A stretch of 64,000 nucleotides of DNA, taken from NCBI GenBank assembly GCA_050014495.1, contig JBEKDF010000014.1, positions 30,218 to 94,217 on the forward strand. Reading direction: 5' to 3'. Positions 14,041-39,402 of this stretch are shown here, piece after piece (position 1 is the first letter of the stretch; each line of letters begins with the position of its first letter). A program made the position numbers and the translations under genes. The notes below the pieces were generated by a model. That model was not told the DNA's origin, made no database searches, and saw only the letters and a program-made list of their open reading frames with translations. Source of the stretch: Candidatus Bathyarchaeia archaeon. GTDB taxonomy: Archaea > Thermoproteota > Bathyarchaeia > TCS64.

Positions 14041-14250
14041 AGGAATAAGTGAATGGCAAGGGGAGAAAATAGTTTCCCTTATCGAGTATTTTGTTATAGA
14101 TAATATTATAAAGAGCCTAAATCTAATTAATACATGACCAGTTAGGCACATTATGATAAATCGGTCAAGACCAGTATAGGTTATATTGAGTTCATCTCAC
14201 TCTTAAGGAAGAACACGCAAATTGTTTTCCGCAATTCTCTTACATCTTTT

Positions 14251-14754
14251 TTGATTTTCACTTATCCCGAACTTCAAGAGTTGAAAAAAGACAAGAAGTT
14301 GATTATCCACACCGACTCAGTTGAAAAGGCACTCCAAGAGGCGAGTCTCAGATATCTAGGAGAAGGCAGGGACTACCGCTCCGACCTAATCAAATTCCGA
14401 GATCACCTCAAGGCTCAGAAAAAGGCACCCAAGTCTATAAGTATCGCCATCTCAGGCGCCACAGGGTTCCTTGGCAGGAACAAGTTTAGACTCGACAAGT
14501 ACGACAAACAGGACCCTTCAAGGACCTCGGCAAGACTATCACCAAGGATAAGGTACCGACAGCCGAACAGCTAGCCAAGTTAGTGAGCTTCATGCCGATT
14601 CACTTGAAGACGCTTGTTTACCTACTCAGCTCGTCTTGCATGCGGGTCGATGAAGCTCTACAGCTTTGTGTAGAGGACCTATCACTCGACATGCATCCAG
14701 CGAGGGCTGAAGTCCTTTGGAATGGATACACAAGAACGACGAAGTGCGCGCGCG
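14251..14754 (+). pseudogene. Decayed tyrosine recombinase/integrase (frameshifted, 3'-truncated)
   Basis: SAM-like core-binding part (APKSISIAISG); frameshift near 14515 continues FKDLGKTITKDKVPTAEQLAKLVSFMPIHLKTLVYLLSSSCMRVDEALQL (box I); HxxR and Tyr boxes absent. Confidence 0.75.
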
Positions 14755-15175
14755 ACGAAGGAGTACCTTAGAGACTTCTACGAAGTCCTATTCTTAGACT
14801 GGGTCGACGTCGACGACTTCAGGAAACGCTACGACCACAAAGTCAACAAGGAGTCCTTCGTTGAACGGTTCTCTATCTGGCAGACATATGACAATATTGG
14901 CTACCTTGTCCGTGAGGGGCTAGTGGACCCGAACATCGTCTTTGATGCGGCTGGGTTTCATTGTGTAATGATCTGGGGTCTGTACAAACCGATCATAAAT
15001 ATCATTTCGAGGCCGGAGTTGGGGGACTCAAGCCTGGGAGAACTTTGAGTACATTGCAAATGTGATGTGGAGGATCGCTAAGGAAAGGGGTGCGTTTTCG
15101 CCTGGTGGCAAAGGAGGCACATTTTACGATGCTTACTGGGAGACCTTCGAACCCAAGTCTTCTTCTCCATCATAG
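14755..15175 (+). pseudogene. DUF4760-like protein remnant (5'-truncated, frameshifted)
   Basis: DNIGYLVREGLVD...IWGLYKPII, then after a frameshift near 15030 AWENFEYIANVM...* ending at 15175. Confidence 0.6.
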
Positions 15176-15251
15176 CTGTATCCTCGCCTCAATTTGGGAG
15201 CTACTCGGATTCTATCCATGCTAGCGCGCGCAGCACCAGCTTTAATTTAAA

Positions 15252-15635
15252 TTACGGATTTAGTAAACTTCCGCCAAATATGGCAGAGCCATCCCACCGA
15301 GTTGTCCACGATATTACGGTTACACTCTGATATACGGGGGGAGTGCCAGTGCCATAAGACCCTGAAACGATTAAGTAGAAAGAAGCGCCATCATAGCTTC
15401 TCTGGTAATATATCGTCGAATTGGCGGCACCTCTCTTGAGTTGAGTGAGTGTCTGCAATGTTGATGAGACGCTAACTGTTGGATTCCCTAAGGTGGTTAA
15501 ATCCTTTGCAGACAAGTCGGCTATGATTTTATCGCACCCCTGAACGTTGCCGCGATACTGAAGATAAGCAATAGAAACTATTGATACTGTAATGATTGCA
15601 ATCAAAGCAATAACGGTAATCCCCTTTGTGTTCAT
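15252..15635 (-). CDS. Hypothetical N-terminally anchored exported protein
   Basis: 127-aa ORF with a single N-terminal TM or signal helix. Confidence 0.65.
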   Translation of the reverse strand: MNTKGITVIALIAIITVSIVSIAYLQYRGNVQGCDKIIADLSAKDLTTLGNPTVSVSSTLQTLTQLKRGAANSTIYYQRSYDGASFYLIVSGSYGTGTPPVYQSVTVISWTTRWDGSAIFGGSLLNP

Positions 15636-15851
15636 CTCGTCATTCTCACAGCCCTGTTACCAGTTTTAGCTATTGTTAACGCCAGCTCCTTCTACAAAAG
15701 GGTTCGTATTAACAGCGCGCGCTTCTGGGGGGGGAGCTAGTGCTGTTTGTCACGCCAGTATTTTATCCCCAGAACCTTTACTAGACGTATATGACCTCAT
15801 TCGCTAGACCCGAAATTTAATTATTGATAATAAAATTTGAGATAATTTCCC

Positions 15852-16334
15852 CTACTTGTTCAATCTATTGACCAGTTTACCGACGCGTTCACCAAGTTTC
15901 CTACACGCCTCGAGAGAGGCGTCATTAGGAGAGCCAACAGAGGAGGCACCGTAGTGACTACCAGAAGAGGATCCCTGGATCACCATCCCATGCACTAGAA
16001 GCATCTCGTTTATGGCGATGATCGTTGACTCTGCCCCCGTATGGGTACCACCCGCACTGGCAAATGCACCACCGACCATGCCGTCAAGCTTACCGTGATA
16101 TTTGACAGACTCATCGATGAATTTCTTGATTTTACTACTTGGTAGGCCATAATAGACAGGTGAACCTAGGATGAGTCCCTGATATTGTGGAATCTCATCA
16201 ACGCTTGCCTCATCGATGTGCTTAATGACGGGAGTGACACCCGACTTCTTTACACCATCTTCGACGGCATGAGCCATTTTCTCGGTGTTACCTGTACTTG
16301 AATCGTAGATTATTAGGACCTTCAAGGGTTTCAC
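15852..16334 (-). CDS. WrbA-like flavodoxin / NAD(P)H:quinone oxidoreductase
   Basis: YDSSTGNTEKMA, GSPVYYG and GGAFAS..HTGAE motifs. Confidence 0.85.
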   Translation of the reverse strand: MKPLKVLIIYDSSTGNTEKMAHAVEDGVKKSGVTPVIKHIDEASVDEIPQYQGLILGSPVYYGLPSSKIKKFIDESVKYHGKLDGMVGGAFASAGGTHTGAESTIIAINEMLLVHGMVIQGSSSGSHYGASSVGSPNDASLEACRKLGERVGKLVNRLNK

Positions 16335-16877
16335 CTAAATGAGCTTTTTATCGGCGTCAGGGGTTGCAAATACGCCCTTGACTTCACCCATGTATAGCAT
16401 GTGGAAGTCCTTCGTCTTGTACATCTCAGCCTCTATTTTTGTTTCAAGCTGACCAGGTCTCATGTCGGTCTTGAAGATGGTAGCACACTCGATGTGTACT
16501 GGGCATTCCTCGATGTAAGGCGATTCGATCACTATCCCCTTCTTGGCGGTGAGCTTGCACTCCTTGAATTTGTCGTAGGTCCTACCAGATTTAGTTCCAC
16601 AGAAATCAAGAGTCGTTTCCATTCCCTTGGCGGGCAAGCAGACAGCCCAGCTTTTTGCTTCTTCCATGAGCTTGAAGGTGTGTCTGCTGTGACGAACAGC
16701 GACGATGCATACAGGCTTTGCCCACATGGTGCCCAGGAGACCCCAGCCAATAGTCATCGCGTTTGGCTTTCTATCATCTCCTTCAGTGACAAGAAGGATC
16801 CCATTCTTCCTAAGTAGGTCATTCATCTCGTGAACATACTTGAACGTGTCAACCTTGTCTTTTGGCATCTGAACCAT
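16335..16877 (-). CDS. Flavin reductase-like (flavoredoxin) protein
   Basis: NAMTIGWG, CGTKSGR..DK, ECPVHIEC and H.LYMGEV motifs. Confidence 0.88.
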   Translation of the reverse strand: MVQMPKDKVDTFKYVHEMNDLLRKNGILLVTEGDDRKPNAMTIGWGLLGTMWAKPVCIVAVRHSRHTFKLMEEAKSWAVCLPAKGMETTLDFCGTKSGRTYDKFKECKLTAKKGIVIESPYIEECPVHIECATIFKTDMRPGQLETKIEAEMYKTKDFHMLYMGEVKGVFATPDADKKLI

Positions 16878-17021
16878 GTAAGATATGAGATTGGATCTCG
16901 TTATAAGCGTTAGATTTCCGGATTATTCGAATTATTTCCTTAATTGTCATTTCCTTAACTGGCTCACTAAGGAATGGTTGTCATTACTCAAGTGGAAAAT
17001 ATCTAGAGAAAAGTAAAAAAG

Positions 17022-17501
17022 TTAAATGATGTAGCCGCTGTCAGGTCGTTCGAAGTTCCTAACGAGCTCCAAGTTAAGCTCTGGCTCTAAATCATCAAAG
17101 TCTTCGTCAGTGAGGTCGACCCAAGGTCCAGTCAATGAAGCCTCGACCACTTGGCTACCCTTACCAAAGTTCTCGAGACACACCTTGTAAGTAAGTCGCC
17201 TGACCTGGGACTCATCCTCAAAGCCTAGGCTATGTAGGTACTCATGTAGGAGAATCGTGTAAACGTGGCATCGCTCATTCATCCCCGTCTTTCCCTTGAT
17301 GAGTCTCCTGTTGAGGACAATCTCATTTGTCCCCATCGGGTGAAAGGCCCCCACGTTCATCGGGAGATTCCCCAGAAGCAGCATGAGTCCAACCCTATGT
17401 AACCCAAGGGTCTTCTTTACGCCTCGCTTCACTAAGGCGAAGATATCCCCGTAATCTCTACAGGCCTCTAGGTCAGACGCGAGCGTTCTGAGTTGCTCCC
17501 C
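17022..17501 (-). CDS. Conserved archaeal HEXXH putative metalloprotease; start codon unclear
   Basis: LLHEYLHSLG; coding-like frame extends upstream of the GTG at 17432 (GEQLRTLASDLEACRDYGDIFALVK) to the NifU stop. Confidence 0.7.
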   Translation of the reverse strand, partial: GEQLRTLASDLEACRDYGDIFALVKRGVKKTLGLHRVGLMLLLGNLPMNVGAFHPMGTNEIVLNRRLIKGKTGMNERCHVYTILLHEYLHSLGFEDESQVRRLTYKVCLENFGKGSQVVEASLTGPWVDLTDEDFDDLEPELNLELVRNFERPDSGYII

Positions 17502-17723
17502 CTAGACTGCCTCTACGGCCTTAACGCCGGGGACCTTCTTTTTTAGGTACTGCTCGACACCCCATTTCACTGTCATCTGACTCATGGGGCAGCCTGCGCA
17601 GTGGCCCTTGAGCTTCACCTTGACGACGCCGTCCTTGACGTCGACGAGCTCGACGTCGCCCCCATCCATTTGGAGCTGTGGTCGAACGTCTTCAAGCGCC
17701 CTCTGTATTTCCGCCTTTTCCAA
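17502..17723 (-). CDS. NifU C-terminal/Nfu-type Fe-S carrier
   Basis: VRPQLQMDGGDVEL...LKGHCAGCP motif. Confidence 0.92.
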   Translation of the reverse strand: MEKAEIQRALEDVRPQLQMDGGDVELVDVKDGVVKVKLKGHCAGCPMSQMTVKWGVEQYLKKKVPGVKAVEAV

Positions 17724-17887
17724 AATCGCACCTTCAGAATTGTGGACACGAGGAGCCTATTAAAGGTTGAGAGGCAGGTCAACTATAGCGAGGTAATCTG
17801 GGCGCTGTATGTCATTAATTTGACACGGGAAAGGTTAAAAAGGGAAGCAGCATCCATGATTGCGTTCAAGGTGTTGAAGAGTGATGG

Positions 17888-18802
17888 GTGACCATCAAAC
17901 AGTTTAGTATTTACGCTCCCGCTTCAATTGCTAACCTTGGACCTGGCTTCGACGTTTTCGGTGTAGCCCTCGATGGACTAGGTGACAAACTTAAAGTAAA
18001 GAGGGTATCCGAACCAGGTGTCCGAATTCAGGTAAAAGGTTTTGAGGCGGATCAGATTCCGGTGAAGGCGCAACTAAACAGCGCTGGAGCCGTCATGCAG
18101 GCAGCGCTGAGTAGGTTTACAGAGCCTATCGGTGTCGAGATTGAGATTGAGAAGGGTGTTCCACCAGGTAAGGGTATGGGATCATCAGGAGCCTCAGCGG
18201 CCGCAGCCGCTGTGGCTGCTGTGAATCTATTGGACTTAGTCATCCCGCAGAGGGAACTCGTGGAACTTGCAGCCCAAGGAGAGGCTGCAGTGGCTGGTAG
18301 CGCCCATGCCGATAATGTCTCAGCGAGCCTCTTCGGGGGGTTCATCCTAGTTAGCGACGGATACGACGTAATGAGGATGGAGATACCCGATGTTGGTTTC
18401 GTAGTCGTTGTCCCTGACGTAAAGTACAAGAATAAGACGAAGATGGCGAGGGGGCTTCTCCCAGAGATGGTGAACCTCAAGGACGCTGTAAGGAACATAG
18501 GCTATGCCTCGAGGATGGCGGCTGCCGTCGCGATGAAGGACCCGATACTATTCGGGAAGAGCATATGCGACTGCGTGATCGAGCCTCACAGGGCTGGAAT
18601 GATACCTAACTTCCACCTTGTGAAGCTAGCTGCCTTGCAGGCGGGTGCTTATGGGTGCTCCATAAGTGGCGGAGGTCCGAGCGTCTTCGCCGTGGGCGAG
18701 AAGCCAGTCGAACTTGGCAAGGCTATGGTTGAGGCATTCGGTGACACTCCCGCTGAAGCCTACATCACCAAACCCAGTAACTTGGGAACGAGGGTCCTGT
18801 GA
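17888..18802 (+). CDS. thrB: Homoserine kinase
   Basis: PASIANLGPGFD, GMGSSGAS, HADNV and SGGGPS motifs. Confidence 0.93.
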   Translation: MTIKQFSIYAPASIANLGPGFDVFGVALDGLGDKLKVKRVSEPGVRIQVKGFEADQIPVKAQLNSAGAVMQAALSRFTEPIGVEIEIEKGVPPGKGMGSSGASAAAAAVAAVNLLDLVIPQRELVELAAQGEAAVAGSAHADNVSASLFGGFILVSDGYDVMRMEIPDVGFVVVVPDVKYKNKTKMARGLLPEMVNLKDAVRNIGYASRMAAAVAMKDPILFGKSICDCVIEPHRAGMIPNFHLVKLAALQAGAYGCSISGGGPSVFAVGEKPVELGKAMVEAFGDTPAEAYITKPSNLGTRVL

Positions 18803-20070
18803 TGCCCTCCAAGTTTAGGTGCATACGCTGTTCACGTGAATACGAGCCCGGCAGCATCTTCAGGTGCGAATGTGGCGGCCTCTTAGAGGTCATCCACGAG
18901 CCAATAAAGTGGGATAGGCATATCGTAGATTCTCGCCTCTGCCCCATGGGAGTACCATACAGCAGCGGGGTTTGGAGATATAAGGAACTAATCCATCCGG
19001 GTCTCTATGCGGGGTTCATAGTAACTCGCCCTGAGGGAAATACAAACATCTACCACCGCGGAACAGTCTCTGATTATGTCGGCGTCGACAAACTCACCAT
19101 GAAACACGAGGGAGAGAACCCCACTGGAAGCTTCAAGGATAGGGGAATAACAGTCGCGGTCTCCGAGGCTCTTCGTCAGAATGCGAAGGCAGTTGCCTGC
19201 GCATCAACGGGGAATACAAGTGCATCGATGGCAGCTTATGCGGCTCAGGCCAATCTTCAGGGGATCGTGTTCATTCCGGAGGGAGAAATAGCATATGCTA
19301 AGCTGAGTCAGGCCTTAGCTTATGGCTCCAAGGTGGTTCAGGTACCTGGCAGCTTCGATGATGCAATGCGTATAGTCCAAGAGGCAAGCAGAGAGCTTGG
19401 CCTCTACCTCCTCAACTCAATTAACCCGTGGCGGGTCGAAGGGCAGAAGACGATCATCCTCGAGCTACTCCACCAGCGTGGTTGGGAACCACCAGACTGG
19501 ATCGTGGTCCCCGCGGGAAATCTCGGTAACACATCTGCTTTCGGAAAGGCCCTCGCCGAACTGGTGGAGCTCGGCTGGATTGACAGCGTGCCACGTATTG
19601 CCTCAATCCAAGCTGAGGGAGCCGCGCCCTTCTACAAGCTTTGGAAGTATGGGGGCTCGGAGTTGGAGGCGCTTCACCCAGAGACTGTGGCAACCGCGAT
19701 AAAGATCGGAAACCCAGTCAGCTGGGAAAAGGCTCTCAGAGTCATTAGGGAGACGGATGGCGTCGTCGAGGTGGTTACGGATACTGAGATCATGGAGGCG
19801 AAGGCCATCGTCGACGCGAGCGGTGTGGGTTGCGAACCCGCTTCTGCTGCATCCATTGCAGGGGCAAAAAAACTCACTGCAGCTGGAATCATAAGACCTG
19901 ACGACGATGTGGTCTGCGTACTGACTGGCAACCTCTTGAAAGACCCGGATACCACTGTGAAGTATCACACAAACAAGCTCAAAGGGATTCAACCTGCTAG
20001 GTCAAATGCACCTACACAACTTGATGCTAAGTCGATATCCGCCTCGCTTAGGAGAATCCTATCGAAATAA
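18799..20070 (+). CDS. thrC: Threonine synthase
   Basis: NPTGSFKDRG, CASTGNTSAS, NSINPWR.EGQKT and TGNLLKDP motifs. Confidence 0.93.
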   Translation: MMPSKFRCIRCSREYEPGSIFRCECGGLLEVIHEPIKWDRHIVDSRLCPMGVPYSSGVWRYKELIHPGLYAGFIVTRPEGNTNIYHRGTVSDYVGVDKLTMKHEGENPTGSFKDRGITVAVSEALRQNAKAVACASTGNTSASMAAYAAQANLQGIVFIPEGEIAYAKLSQALAYGSKVVQVPGSFDDAMRIVQEASRELGLYLLNSINPWRVEGQKTIILELLHQRGWEPPDWIVVPAGNLGNTSAFGKALAELVELGWIDSVPRIASIQAEGAAPFYKLWKYGGSELEALHPETVATAIKIGNPVSWEKALRVIRETDGVVEVVTDTEIMEAKAIVDASGVGCEPASAASIAGAKKLTAAGIIRPDDDVVCVLTGNLLKDPDTTVKYHTNKLKGIQPARSNAPTQLDAKSISASLRRILSK

Positions 20071-20082
20071 AGAGGGCCATTA

Positions 20083-20551
20083 GTGATGGATATCATCGTA
20101 TTGAAGTTAGGAGGCTCCATTCTTCGAGGCGGGGAGGATCTCAGGAAAGTTGCTGACGTTGTTGAGTTCGAGATAAACTCGGGGAGGCTTCCAGTCTGCA
20201 TTGTCTCCGCGATGAAGGGAGTCACTGACAAAATAATCAATGCCCTAAGCCAAGTCAGGACTGTTGGGTTCGATCCAAGGGTATTTGTCGAAGGTCTCAT
20301 GCTGGAACACCTATCATACCTCCCTGAGGGGATCGACCAGGAGCCATTTAGGAGGGAATTCGAGAAGTTAGAGCATGTTCTCTCCTATGTAAGATCGTCG
20401 GGCGAATTGACTGACGGGCGCTTTGGCTGAGCATGGGGTGAATATTGAACAAGCTACCCAACCTAACAGTGAGAATATAATCAGGTTCAGTGTAAGCGAT
20501 GACGACGTACCTCTCGCTGTCGCAGCAGTTTACAAGGAGTTCTTCAGGTGA
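20083..20551 (+). pseudogene. lysC: Aspartokinase with large out-of-frame internal deletion
   Basis: N-terminal VLKLGGS...IVSAMKGVTD joined near 20419 to a different-frame C-terminal ACT tail (ALAEHGVNIEQ...SENIIRFSVS...AVYKEFFR*), whose TGA overlaps the asd GTG. Confidence 0.8.
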
Positions 20552-21102
20552 ATGAAATGAGGAAACAGAAAGCTATAGTGATTGGAGCAACTGGTGCTGC
20601 TGGACAGAATATAGTAGAGTTCCTCACGAACCATCCTTGGTTCGAGTTAGCAGGCCTCGCTGCATCGAGTAAATCGGCATCCTTTGCATACTCTAAGGCA
20701 ATAGAGGGGGCAATATTCTTCGAGCGCGCGCGCATCGGCGCAACCTGCACTCGCGTCCAAGTTCAGACTGTCCACACCGAAGCCGTCTATGTAGACACAA
20801 AGAAGCCCTGCAGCTTAGATGAGGCGAAGAACGCGATGCGAGAATATGTGAGTGAACCCCAAAAACTCAAACTTCCTTCTGCACCCAAAAAACCCATAAT
20901 CGTTTTCGATGGGCCTAAGATGCCTCAGCCGAAGCTCCATCGGCAGTATGGTGGTGATGTGACTCTGGTTGGGCGCCTAAGGAGGGATCCGGTCTTCAAG
21001 AATGGTCTAGCCTATATTGTAACTAGTGATAACCTCGACAAAGGAGCGGGCGGCGGAGCCGTACAGACCGCCGAGTATCTCAAGGCGAAGAGGTACTTCT
21101 AG
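20548..21102 (+). pseudogene. asd: Aspartate-semialdehyde dehydrogenase with in-frame internal deletion
   Basis: GATGAAGQ...HPWFE N-terminus fused directly to the ATCTRV...HTE...VGRLR...GAGGG C-terminus; 184 aa, catalytic NPNC region missing. Confidence 0.82.
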
Positions 21103-39228: not shown

Positions 39229-39402
39229 TCATTAGCGCGCGCAAGACGACTAGCGGTTTCTCTACTGGATGTTCATACTTCGATTTGTCCATTAGTTGGG
39301 ACCCCGCGGTCTGGTCACCTATCGCTGATATATTCCTCTCGGTTGACTATGGAGACTCTTTAACGGGTTTAATCCTGATGGCGTTTGCAGCTTGCGATTA
39401 GA

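What the first reader, a model, noticed from the sequence alone, without database searches (positions are those of the whole stretch)
14746..20733. (GC)n tracts sit exactly at the junctions of chimeric or deleted genes
Seen: three independent gene breakpoints coincide with GC-dinucleotide runs. The integrase remnant is fused to a DUF4760-like remnant at GCGCGCGCG (14746-14754). The asd N- and C-terminal parts are fused at GCGCGCGCGC (20724-20733, reading RAR). The lysC N-terminus joins its ACT tail at GGGCGC (20416-20421; a weaker case). All five GCGCGCGC runs I found by eye (14746, 15224, 15715, 20724, 39235) are at junctions or gene borders, and none is in an intact CDS. Inference: there may be a recombination or end-joining process that uses (GC)n as a core or microhomology site, or leaves it as non-templated filler, or these are Z-DNA-prone break hotspots. 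I know of no described archaeal system with this signature.
Basis: partly seen in the sequence, partly recalled or inferred. Interest (0 to 1): 0.85.

Follow-up and report, generated by a model that had tools for sequence, protein, structure and literature searches.

The report
GC filler written at deletion joints
In this peat archaeon hundreds of short GCGCGCGC stretches sit where DNA was deleted or fused and, wherever an intact gene could be compared, were not there before; they are likely written in by a host break-repair enzyme and likely reused as landing sites by a family of jumping genes.

Summary
The runs are real and span independent sequencing runs. GCGCGCGC is the genome's most over-represented 8-mer (512 vs 30 expected). 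Of 459 runs of 8 or more, 7 lie inside conserved DNA and 59 at block edges. In asd, 538 bp were replaced by GCGCGCGCGC, which is ancestral on neither side. Across 114 breakpoints with a homologue, 103 share at most 2 letters with the run, so the runs are filler, not microhomology cores or Z-DNA hotspots. The lysC case is wrong: it is a clean 935-bp deletion 7 bp upstream, and GGGCGC there is ancestral codons. An IS5/IS1182-like clade is flanked by GCGCGC. Its flank lengths fit insertion into existing runs with a 6-bp duplication (p=0.66) and reject GCGCGC as element ends. Ten of 27 run-rich genomes, one a single contig, show no trace of it. Ku/LigD does not track the runs. Best reading (0.5): a host end-joining step, probably primase-type, writes self-complementary (GC)n, and the IS homes on the scars. 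Rival (0.33): the transposase writes them. The enzyme was not identified. The scan noted these runs before in this and other genomes, mostly as transposon-end scars; my tests argue against that form.

The parts
14097..14745 (+). tyrosine-integrase remnant (broken by a stop/frameshift near 14574), cut off at the GC run
   Evidence: 67% DNA identity to C21:36939-37287; 56% aa to an integrase on C56; Phage_integrase E 0.009
14746..14754 (.). (GC)n run GCGCGCGCG at the integrase/DUF4760 fusion
   Evidence: spanned by contigs of X3, X5, X7, X9; ancestral bases not readable
14755..15048 (+). C-terminal part of a DUF4760-like gene, N-terminus missing
   Evidence: PF15956 E 0.002, below cut-off; about 38% to paralogues from the first codon after the run
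15224..15231 (.). (GC)4 run; the G012 homologue has GCGCGC plus an IS end within 8 bp of this place
15252..15635 (-). 127-aa ORF of no known family, bounded by two runs
   Evidence: no Pfam hit; 74% DNA identity to G012 C1:73669-74125
15715..15722 (.). (GC)4 run where homology to G012 stops; no run in the homologue
20083..20408 (+). lysC (aspartokinase) N-terminal remnant
   Evidence: AA_kinase; junction at 20408/20409
20409..20551 (+). lysC ACT tail, out of frame after a clean 935-bp deletion; GGGCGC at 20416-20421 is ancestral coding sequence and not a scar
   Evidence: ACT_9
20548..20723 (+). asd N-terminal part
   Evidence: Semialdhyde_dh; orthologue alignment
20724..20733 (.). (GC)5 filler replacing 538 bp of asd, in frame (net loss of 176 codons), ancestral on neither side
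   Evidence: spanned by X3, X5, X7
20734..21102 (+). asd C-terminal part
   Evidence: Semialdhyde_dhC; 81-86% aa to genus orthologues
39235..39242 (.). (GC)4 run just behind the DAK2 gene, where homology to G012 ends

Best explanation
The runs are filler at deletion and fusion joints, likely written by a host, Ku-independent end-joining step in which a primase-type polymerase would add alternating G and C to trimmed DNA ends so that the self-complementary tails pair and are sealed; an IS5/IS1182-like transposon clade then likely uses the runs as targets, duplicating GCGCGC. Shown: the runs are real, sit at breakpoints, are absent from the intact homologues and come with loss of DNA (about 7 to 2300 bp). 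Shown: IS flank lengths fit a 6-bp duplication of existing runs. Inferred: the writer is a host enzyme and not the transposase, because run-rich genomes without the IS exist. Untested: that the enzyme is the replicative primase PriSL (chosen by precedent), and how alternation and the 10-nt cap arise.
For: (1) Non-ancestral. asd on both sides. Of 114 breakpoint flanks, matches to the run were 0:45, 1:42, 2:16, 3:3, 4:4, and 7 or more:4 (which look like scars shared between paralogues). A random-cut null gives 0.57/0.30/0.09/0.03/0.01. Paralogues 97-100% alike also lack the run.
(2) Always with DNA loss. 11 two-sided cases in G000 replace 9, 12, 180, 210, 316, 317, 317, 455, 540, 1879 and 2324 bp; no row has an ancestral gap below 7. 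Simple IS insertion followed by loss would give pure insertions.
(3) The IS consumes runs. For 63 IS ends, flank lengths 6/7/8/9/10 are 23/10/18/7/5. Insertion into existing runs with a 6-bp duplication predicts 27/12/14/5.5/4.7 (p=0.66). Element-borne GCGCGC at random sites predicts 47/12/2.7/0.6/0.2 (p about 1e-59). Element-borne GCGCGC put into existing runs predicts 38% of flanks over 10 nt, and 0 of 70 are. Only 32 of 459 runs touch an IS end.
(4) Runs without the IS. 12 of 27 run-rich genomes had no transposase hit at 1e-15. At 1e-3, 11 still had none and one had a distant hit without GC-flanked ends. Two of the 12 do have end motifs. G103 is one 1.98-Mb contig with the most 9-mers (256). 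It has no hit to the clade profile, PF01609, PF05598 or PF13751, no repeated flank seen among 42 runs read, and one of its runs lies in a 42-bp insertion against a paralogue.
(5) The base outside the run follows the host lineage. A(GC)4T versus T(GC)4A counts are 106/1 in G116, 119/1 in G108, 94/9 in G103 and 11/46 in G000. IS flanks follow the same rule: T in 34 of 46 in G000, across subfamilies about 30% alike; A in 13 of 14 ends in G116.
(6) Precedent. Saccharolobus PriSL does terminal transfer, anneals ends through 2-4 G-C pairs and repairs breaks without Ku, with C insertions next to G/C (PMC12019639; abstract, section 19 and first part of section 21 read). priS-priL are present in G000.
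Against: No enzyme was identified. PriS is universal, yet the trait is patchy: G001 and G010 in the same genus have almost no runs, which looks more like a mobile cause. The published primase insertions are 1-2 bp and not alternating. The IS is commoner in run-rich genomes (15 of 27 vs 43 of 224; kin are not independent), though this would also follow if runs feed the IS. Three of 7 complete G000 elements have flanks summing to 17-18, more than a 6-bp duplication of a run of 10 or less allows. The sharp drop after 10 nt in G000 (111 ten-mers, 5 eleven-mers) is unexplained, and G103 has 12-14-mers. Most comparisons are at about 80% identity, and 393 of 459 runs have no homologue in G012. No empty site of an IS copy was found. 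IS copies can be lost from assembled metagenome genomes.
Confidence: 0.5

Rival explanations
1. The transposase writes the runs. With piggyBac-like hairpin chemistry the excised IS would carry GCGCGC overhangs and patch a broken, trimmed chromosome (deletion-IS-deletion). It would later leave seamlessly or in a slipped register, leaving 6, 8 or 10 nt of GC. Repeated insertion and one-sided resection at the same run would eat away both sides.
For: The clade is GC-flanked almost everywhere: 42 of 54 metagenome ends picked by the inverted repeat alone have runs of 6 or more, and 14 of 16 loci picked by transposase position have GC-flanked ends. The model's closest folds are Tn5 (Z 13.2, rmsd 5.3, 270 aligned) and piggyBac (Z 11.4, rmsd 4.5, 270 aligned), and a Y-R-E-K motif is readable (motif name recalled). 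piggyBac leaves 4-nt overhangs and excises seamlessly (PMC7351741, passages). IS5/IS1182 insertion at the centre of a deletion without duplication is documented (bioRxiv 10.1101/2024.06.02.596822, parts 1-2 of 4). IS-adjacent runs are also non-ancestral where a homologue exists. Contig pairs C12/C3 and C31/C64 look like deletion-IS-deletion. The window's 15224 run matches an IS end in G012. Association with run-rich genomes: 15 of 27 vs 43 of 224.
Against: Ten run-rich genomes show no trace of the clade, including single-contig G103. There is no pure-insertion scar among 11 two-sided cases, whereas deletion-coupled events were 14 of 83 in the cited study. No flank has a 5-6 nt ancestral match, as a first-round natural target would leave. 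Several IS-carrying genomes have almost no runs (G070, G204, G210, G216). The simple form, 'GCGCGC is part of the element end', is rejected by flank lengths.
Confidence: 0.33
2. Another mobile or host recombinase, not yet recognised (not this IS clade and not the primase), cuts after T or A and joins ends with a short captured or copied (GC)n piece; the 10-nt cap would reflect the length of its template.
For: The distribution is patchy but coherent within genera. The hard length cap differs by lineage. The outer base is lineage-specific.
Against: No repeated flank was seen beside 42 G103 runs. There is no reverse transcriptase in G000. The extra PriS paralogue occurs in only 6 of 251 genomes. 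No candidate was found.
Confidence: 0.11
3. Ku-LigD non-homologous end joining adds the GC letters.
For: G000 carries a LigD polymerase-Ku-ligase operon on C3; Ku is found in 14 of 17 genus genomes.
Against: Ku was found in only 10 of 27 run-rich genomes versus 54 of 224 others. It was not found in single-contig G021 and G103. It is present in G001, G010 and 20 of 32 genomes of family f26, which have few runs.
Confidence: 0.04
4. Pre-existing GC runs act as Z-DNA break hotspots or recombination cores; or the joints are assembly chimeras.
For: Runs sit at breakpoints, with a slight excess of 1-2 nt matches over the null.
Against: The runs are absent from intact homologues. AT and AC/GT runs are only 1.2-1.6-fold over expectation. 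Contigs of three other runs span the joints. The excess recurs in single-contig genomes.
Confidence: 0.02

Closest known systems
Primase-promoted microhomology-mediated end joining (pp-MMEJ) by Saccharolobus islandicus PriSL (PMC12019639)
   Same: Archaeal, Ku-independent, error-prone break repair with terminal transfer and annealing through a few G-C pairs; insertions are biased to C next to G/C.
   Different: Reported indels are mostly 1-2 bp and not alternating. Here the filler is 7-10 nt of perfect (GC)n, comes with losses of tens to thousands of bases and is lineage-specific. The role of PriSL here is untested.
Ku-LigD non-homologous end joining and N-region filler (recalled knowledge; Methanocella Ku/LigD is mentioned in PMC12019639)
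   Same: Non-templated letters at a joint with 0-2 nt microhomology; the operon is present in G000.
   Different: Such filler has no fixed sequence, and Ku does not track the runs across 251 genomes.
IS5 / IS1182-family insertion sequences, including IS1272 (PMC5678879) and deletion-IS-deletion events (bioRxiv 10.1101/2024.06.02.596822)
   Same: A single 330-aa DUF772 + DDE_Tnp_1 transposase, inverted repeats, palindromic targets, and copies found at deletion joints.
   Different: Scores are below all NCBIfam cut-offs. The target is a (GC)n run, apparently duplicated as GCGCGC, whereas IS1272 removes a stem-loop and makes no duplication. No (GC)n scar appears in the parts of either paper that I read.
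piggyBac (PMC7351741)
   Same: Second-closest fold; a strict palindromic target flanking both ends.
   Different: Eukaryotic, with a 4-bp TTAA target and no footprint; overhang chemistry is untested for this clade.

Membership tests
pp-MMEJ (PriSL) | priS and priL present | tested here: met
   C1:124-127 kb, DNA_primase_S E 3e-18, with a PriL-like neighbour read from its sequence; universal, so weak support
pp-MMEJ (PriSL) | Ku not required | tested here: met
   17 of 27 run-rich genomes have no Ku hit, including single-contig G021 and G103
pp-MMEJ (PriSL) | products are mainly 1-2 bp indels | tested here: not met
   filler of 7-13 nt with losses of 9-2324 bp; small indels were not surveyed
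pp-MMEJ (PriSL) | the primase itself catalyses the joint | not testable with these tools
   needs biochemistry
Ku-LigD NHEJ scar | Ku, polymerase and ligase genes in the genome | tested here: met
Ku-LigD NHEJ scar | scar occurs with Ku and not without | tested here: not met
   10 of 27 vs 54 of 224
IS5/IS1182 family (the flanked elements) | DDE_Tnp_1 and DUF772 domains, single ORF, terminal inverted repeats | tested here: met
IS5/IS1182 family (the flanked elements) | passes a curated family model | tested here: not met
   IS1182 94.9 bits vs cut-off 270; IS5_4 93.6 vs 140
IS5/IS1182 family (the flanked elements) | target-site duplication | tested here: inconclusive
   flank lengths fit a 6-bp duplication, but 3 of 7 whole copies need more and no empty site was found
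Transposon excision footprint | scar is a small insertion at an otherwise intact target | tested here: not met
   0 pure insertions among 11 two-sided cases; no ancestral gap under 7
Transposon excision footprint | the element or its remnants are in the genome | tested here: inconclusive
   met in G000; not found in 10 of 27 run-rich genomes, several of them fragmented
piggyBac-type overhang transposition | hairpin and flank overhang on the excised ends | not testable with these tools
   only fold likeness and a motif
Microhomology core / Z-DNA hotspot | run present in the intact ancestor | tested here: not met

The most novel reading that the evidence does not exclude
Many Bathyarchaeia have a sequence-writing repair pathway: a polymerase makes its own self-complementary (GC)n sticky ends with no nucleic-acid template, so any two broken ends can be joined. 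It has left hundreds of readable scars per genome. An IS clade has evolved to home on those scars as safe harbours, and an IS110 element homes in turn on the scar-IS joint.
Probability: 0.35. Interest if true: 0.9.

Novelty: new variant of a known kind. Interest (0 to 1): 0.72.

Why it matters
How archaea without Ku repair double-strand breaks is an open question. A fixed-sequence filler would make the pathway directly testable: each scar marks one event, with its deletion size, end preference and age, in uncultured lineages. An enzyme that writes alternating GC onto DNA ends would be a new polymerase activity. If the transposase is the writer instead, it would be a transposon that manufactures its own target sites genome-wide. 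Either way the process is destroying genes here: asd and lysC are broken beside intact thrB and thrC, though only asd carries the scar.

Tried and rejected
Assembly chimera: rejected (the possible source runs X1 and X2 were left out, and the four runs laid may belong to one campaign).

An apparent same-length replacement at C9:85303 is synonymous codon variation. Many 7-8-mers inside genes are such chance runs.

Hairpin or fold-back origin: the flanks are no more symmetric than shuffled pairs.

Natural GCGCGC seeds inside the deleted DNA: the longest run in the seven lost segments of 180-540 bp was 4-5 nt, near chance by my rough estimate.

Candidate writers: no reverse transcriptase in G000. 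The PriS paralogue on C20 is in 6 of 251 genomes. A family X polymerase signal is in 57 of 63 family genomes with and without runs and was not found in G103; that model is weak. Ku does not track the runs.

Empty IS sites were sought in G000, G012 and fetched loci and in 54 metagenome ends: none found. One search selected elements by their GC runs, so it is not used to show that all copies are GC-flanked; 3 of its 30 rows were dropped (2 chance, 1 duplicate).

Close-strain alleles of the window's joints could not be examined. The viral collection gave no relative. The alignment was too diverse for a genome-contig scan. PDB sequence search gave nothing useful. A distant bacterial IS5 relative has no GCGCGC flank (1 locus readable of 2).

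In one search, 11 of 73 tight junctions against G012 carry a run of 7 or more (one counted twice); many of the 73 may be insertions in G012.

Literature: searches showed no description of (GC)n scars or a GCGCGC-targeting IS. This rests on listings and abstract starts only, and the library lacks most subscription journals. A word search of PMC13343696 gave nothing relevant. PMC1847376 was not held. No supplements were read; those of PMC12019639 and PMC13343696 could bear on filler sequences and IS targets.
Full report
Setting. The window is C14:30218-94217 of a 3.11-Mb, 92-contig, 49% GC genome. Runs holding it are mostly peat metagenomes. A 67%-identical transposase homologue is labelled Bathyarchaeia by its source, so the host is likely of that class.

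The observation. Genome-wide, alternating GC runs number 481, 186, 192, 144, 111, 5 and 4 for lengths 6 to 12, while all other dinucleotide runs decay smoothly. GCGCGCGC is the most over-represented 8-mer (512 vs 30 under a third-order Markov model; the 10-mer 99 vs 1.7). ATATATAT, TATATATA, ACACACAC and GTGTGTGT are only 1.2-1.6-fold over. Contigs of three other sequencing runs span 14746, 15224, 15715, 20409 and 20724 without a difference, so these are not assembly chimeras.

Breakpoints. Against the whole genome of a congener (G012, about 80% identity, 54% of G000 aligned), 7 of 459 runs of 8 or more lie inside conserved blocks (random places 51%), 59 at block edges (12.9% vs 1.9%) and 393 in unaligned accessory DNA. 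In asd the run replaces 538 bp and neither side of the orthologues holds it. The deletion is in frame, and the search with this fragment found no other asd in the genome. lysC is different: a clean 935-bp deletion at 20408/20409, with GGGCGC as ancestral codons 7 bp further on. The run at 14746 joins an integrase remnant to the C-terminal part of a DUF4760-like gene.

Filler, not core. Of 887 non-IS flanks, 120 had a homologue reaching the run and 114 were breakpoints. The homologue continued into the run by 0, 1, 2, 3 and 4 letters in 45, 42, 16, 3 and 4 cases, and by 7 or more in 4, which look like scars shared by paralogues. A random-cut null gives 57, 30, 9, 3 and 1%. There is thus a slight 1-2 nt microhomology and no pre-existing run, also in paralogues 97-100% alike. 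All 11 cases in G000 with both flanks on one homologue replace DNA (9 to 2324 bp), several inside transposase genes, and no pure insertion was seen (the middle of that output was cut, but it is sorted by gap and starts at 7). The base before a G-starting run of 8-10 is T in about 60% of cases and is usually ancestral.

The transposon link. A clade of 1.1-1.3 kb elements with a 330-aa DUF772 + DDE_Tnp_1 transposase, in subfamilies about 30% alike, is flanked by GCGCGC in fixed phase at both ends. It passes no curated IS model and folds closest to Tn5 and piggyBac. Of 54 metagenome ends chosen by the inverted repeat alone, 42 have a run of 6 or more. Earlier notes of this scan mostly read GCGCGC as the element's own tip and the runs as its scars, so I tested that. 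For 63 ends in G000 the flank lengths 6-10 are 23, 10, 18, 7 and 5. Insertion into existing accessory runs with a 6-bp duplication predicts 27, 12, 14, 5.5 and 4.7 with no fitted parameter (p=0.66). An element-borne hexamer at random sites is rejected (p about 1e-59). An element-borne hexamer placed into existing runs predicts 38% of flanks above 10 nt, against 0 of 70. The IS therefore looks like a user of the runs. Against this: three of seven whole copies have flanks summing to 17-18, and no empty site was found. Only 32 of 459 runs touch an IS end.

Across the class. In 251 genomes, 27 are run-rich (25 or more 9-mers and a 9-mer/6-mer ratio of 0.07 or more). The IS was found in 15 of them and in 43 of the other 224; Ku in 10 and 54. 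Kin are not independent and many assemblies are fragmented. Of the 12 run-rich genomes without the IS, 11 stay empty at E 0.001 and one has a distant, non-GC-flanked hit; two have end motifs. G103 is a single 1.98-Mb contig (86% by markers; 30-46% GC in the pieces read) with the highest load. It has no hit to the clade, to three transposase domains or to Ku, and no repeated flank was seen among 42 runs read. Its runs read A(GC)nT, as in G116 and G108, whereas G000 has T(GC)nA, and the IS flanks in G000 and G116 follow their host's rule.

Mechanism. Shown: break or cut, loss of DNA, a joint with 0-2 nt microhomology and 7-10 nt of new (GC)n. Inferred: a host enzyme writes it, because deletion is the rule and the trait exists without the IS and without Ku. 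(GC)n is self-complementary, so any two tailed ends can pair, which gives a simple reason for this sequence. The best-precedented candidate is the replicative primase. In Saccharolobus, PriSL adds nucleotides to ends, anneals strands through 2-4 G-C pairs and repairs breaks without Ku, with C insertions next to G or C (PMC12019639; abstract, section 19 and first part of section 21). Its reported indels are 1-2 bp and not alternating, so this works like pp-MMEJ but is not shown to be it. A reverse transcriptase, an extra PriS paralogue and PolX gave no support as the writer. The strongest rival keeps the transposase as writer, through GC overhangs carried into deletion-IS-deletion events, which are known for an IS5/IS1182 element (bioRxiv 10.1101/2024.06.02.596822, parts 1-2 of 4), followed by seamless exit as in piggyBac (PMC7351741, passages). 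It explains the patchy distribution and the IS end opposite window 15224, but not the IS-free genomes or the lack of pure insertions. Neither model explains the cap at 10 nt.

Novelty. Ten literature searches showed no description of this signature, within the limits of the library. The scan itself has noted it in this genome and several others. What is added here is the filler statistics, the test against element-borne ends and the IS-free genomes. Verdict: a real, widespread junction signature that I did not find described; cause unresolved between a host writer (0.5) and the transposase (0.33); interest 0.72.

Noticed in passing
G000 C17:57467-58774, C48:5782-7090; L011:2572-3886 (G012): An IS110-family element (PF01548, PF02371) sits exactly between the GCGCGC run and the inverted repeat of the IS5-like elements, with a CT core at both joints, in two G000 copies and one G012 copy; the same inner joint recurs in a second G012 place and three metagenome loci: an IS that targets the end of another IS.
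   Followed up: partly
window 17888-21102: thrB and thrC are intact, but lysC and asd are both broken by separate deletions; no asd match was found in 7 of 17 congeners with this fragment as query, so the aspartate pathway may be eroding in the genus.
   Followed up: no
L198 (G000 C3:65.2-67.5 kb): A LigD polymerase, Ku and ATP ligase operon. Ku is found in 64 of 251 genomes of the class, although it is said to be rare in archaea (PMC12019639); my search for Bathyarchaeia with non-homologous end joining found no paper.
   Followed up: partly
L004:1080-1545 (G000 C79:7080-7543); G012 C6:853725-854233: Short non-autonomous elements (400-500 bp) with the clade's ends; the C79 copy carries a winged-helix ArsR/Lrs14-like ORF in place of the transposase.
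   Followed up: no
G000 C3:76677: A 12-nt GC run replaces 9 bp with no shift of frame inside DNA conserved with G012: a scar that may be tolerated in a working gene.
   Followed up: no
G000 C7:64936, C7:90639, C1:234404 and four 12-mers: The seven runs of 12-18 nt have about the summed flank lengths of whole IS copies and may be true excision footprints, distinct from the 8-10 nt class.
   Followed up: no
window 14755-15048; G000 C24, C50, C53, C66, C72, C74, C77, C84, C86, C92: A large paralogue family of DUF4760-like small proteins, in clusters on many accessory contigs.
   Followed up: no
L199:847-2163 (G000 C20): A 439-aa second PriS-like protein beside a gene that reads like an oligosaccharyl transferase, found in only 6 of 251 genomes.
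   Followed up: partly
G001, G010: Two congeners have only 17 and 11 GCGCGC matches in 1.6-1.8 Mb, far below their relatives: natural negative controls for a gene-content comparison.
   Followed up: no
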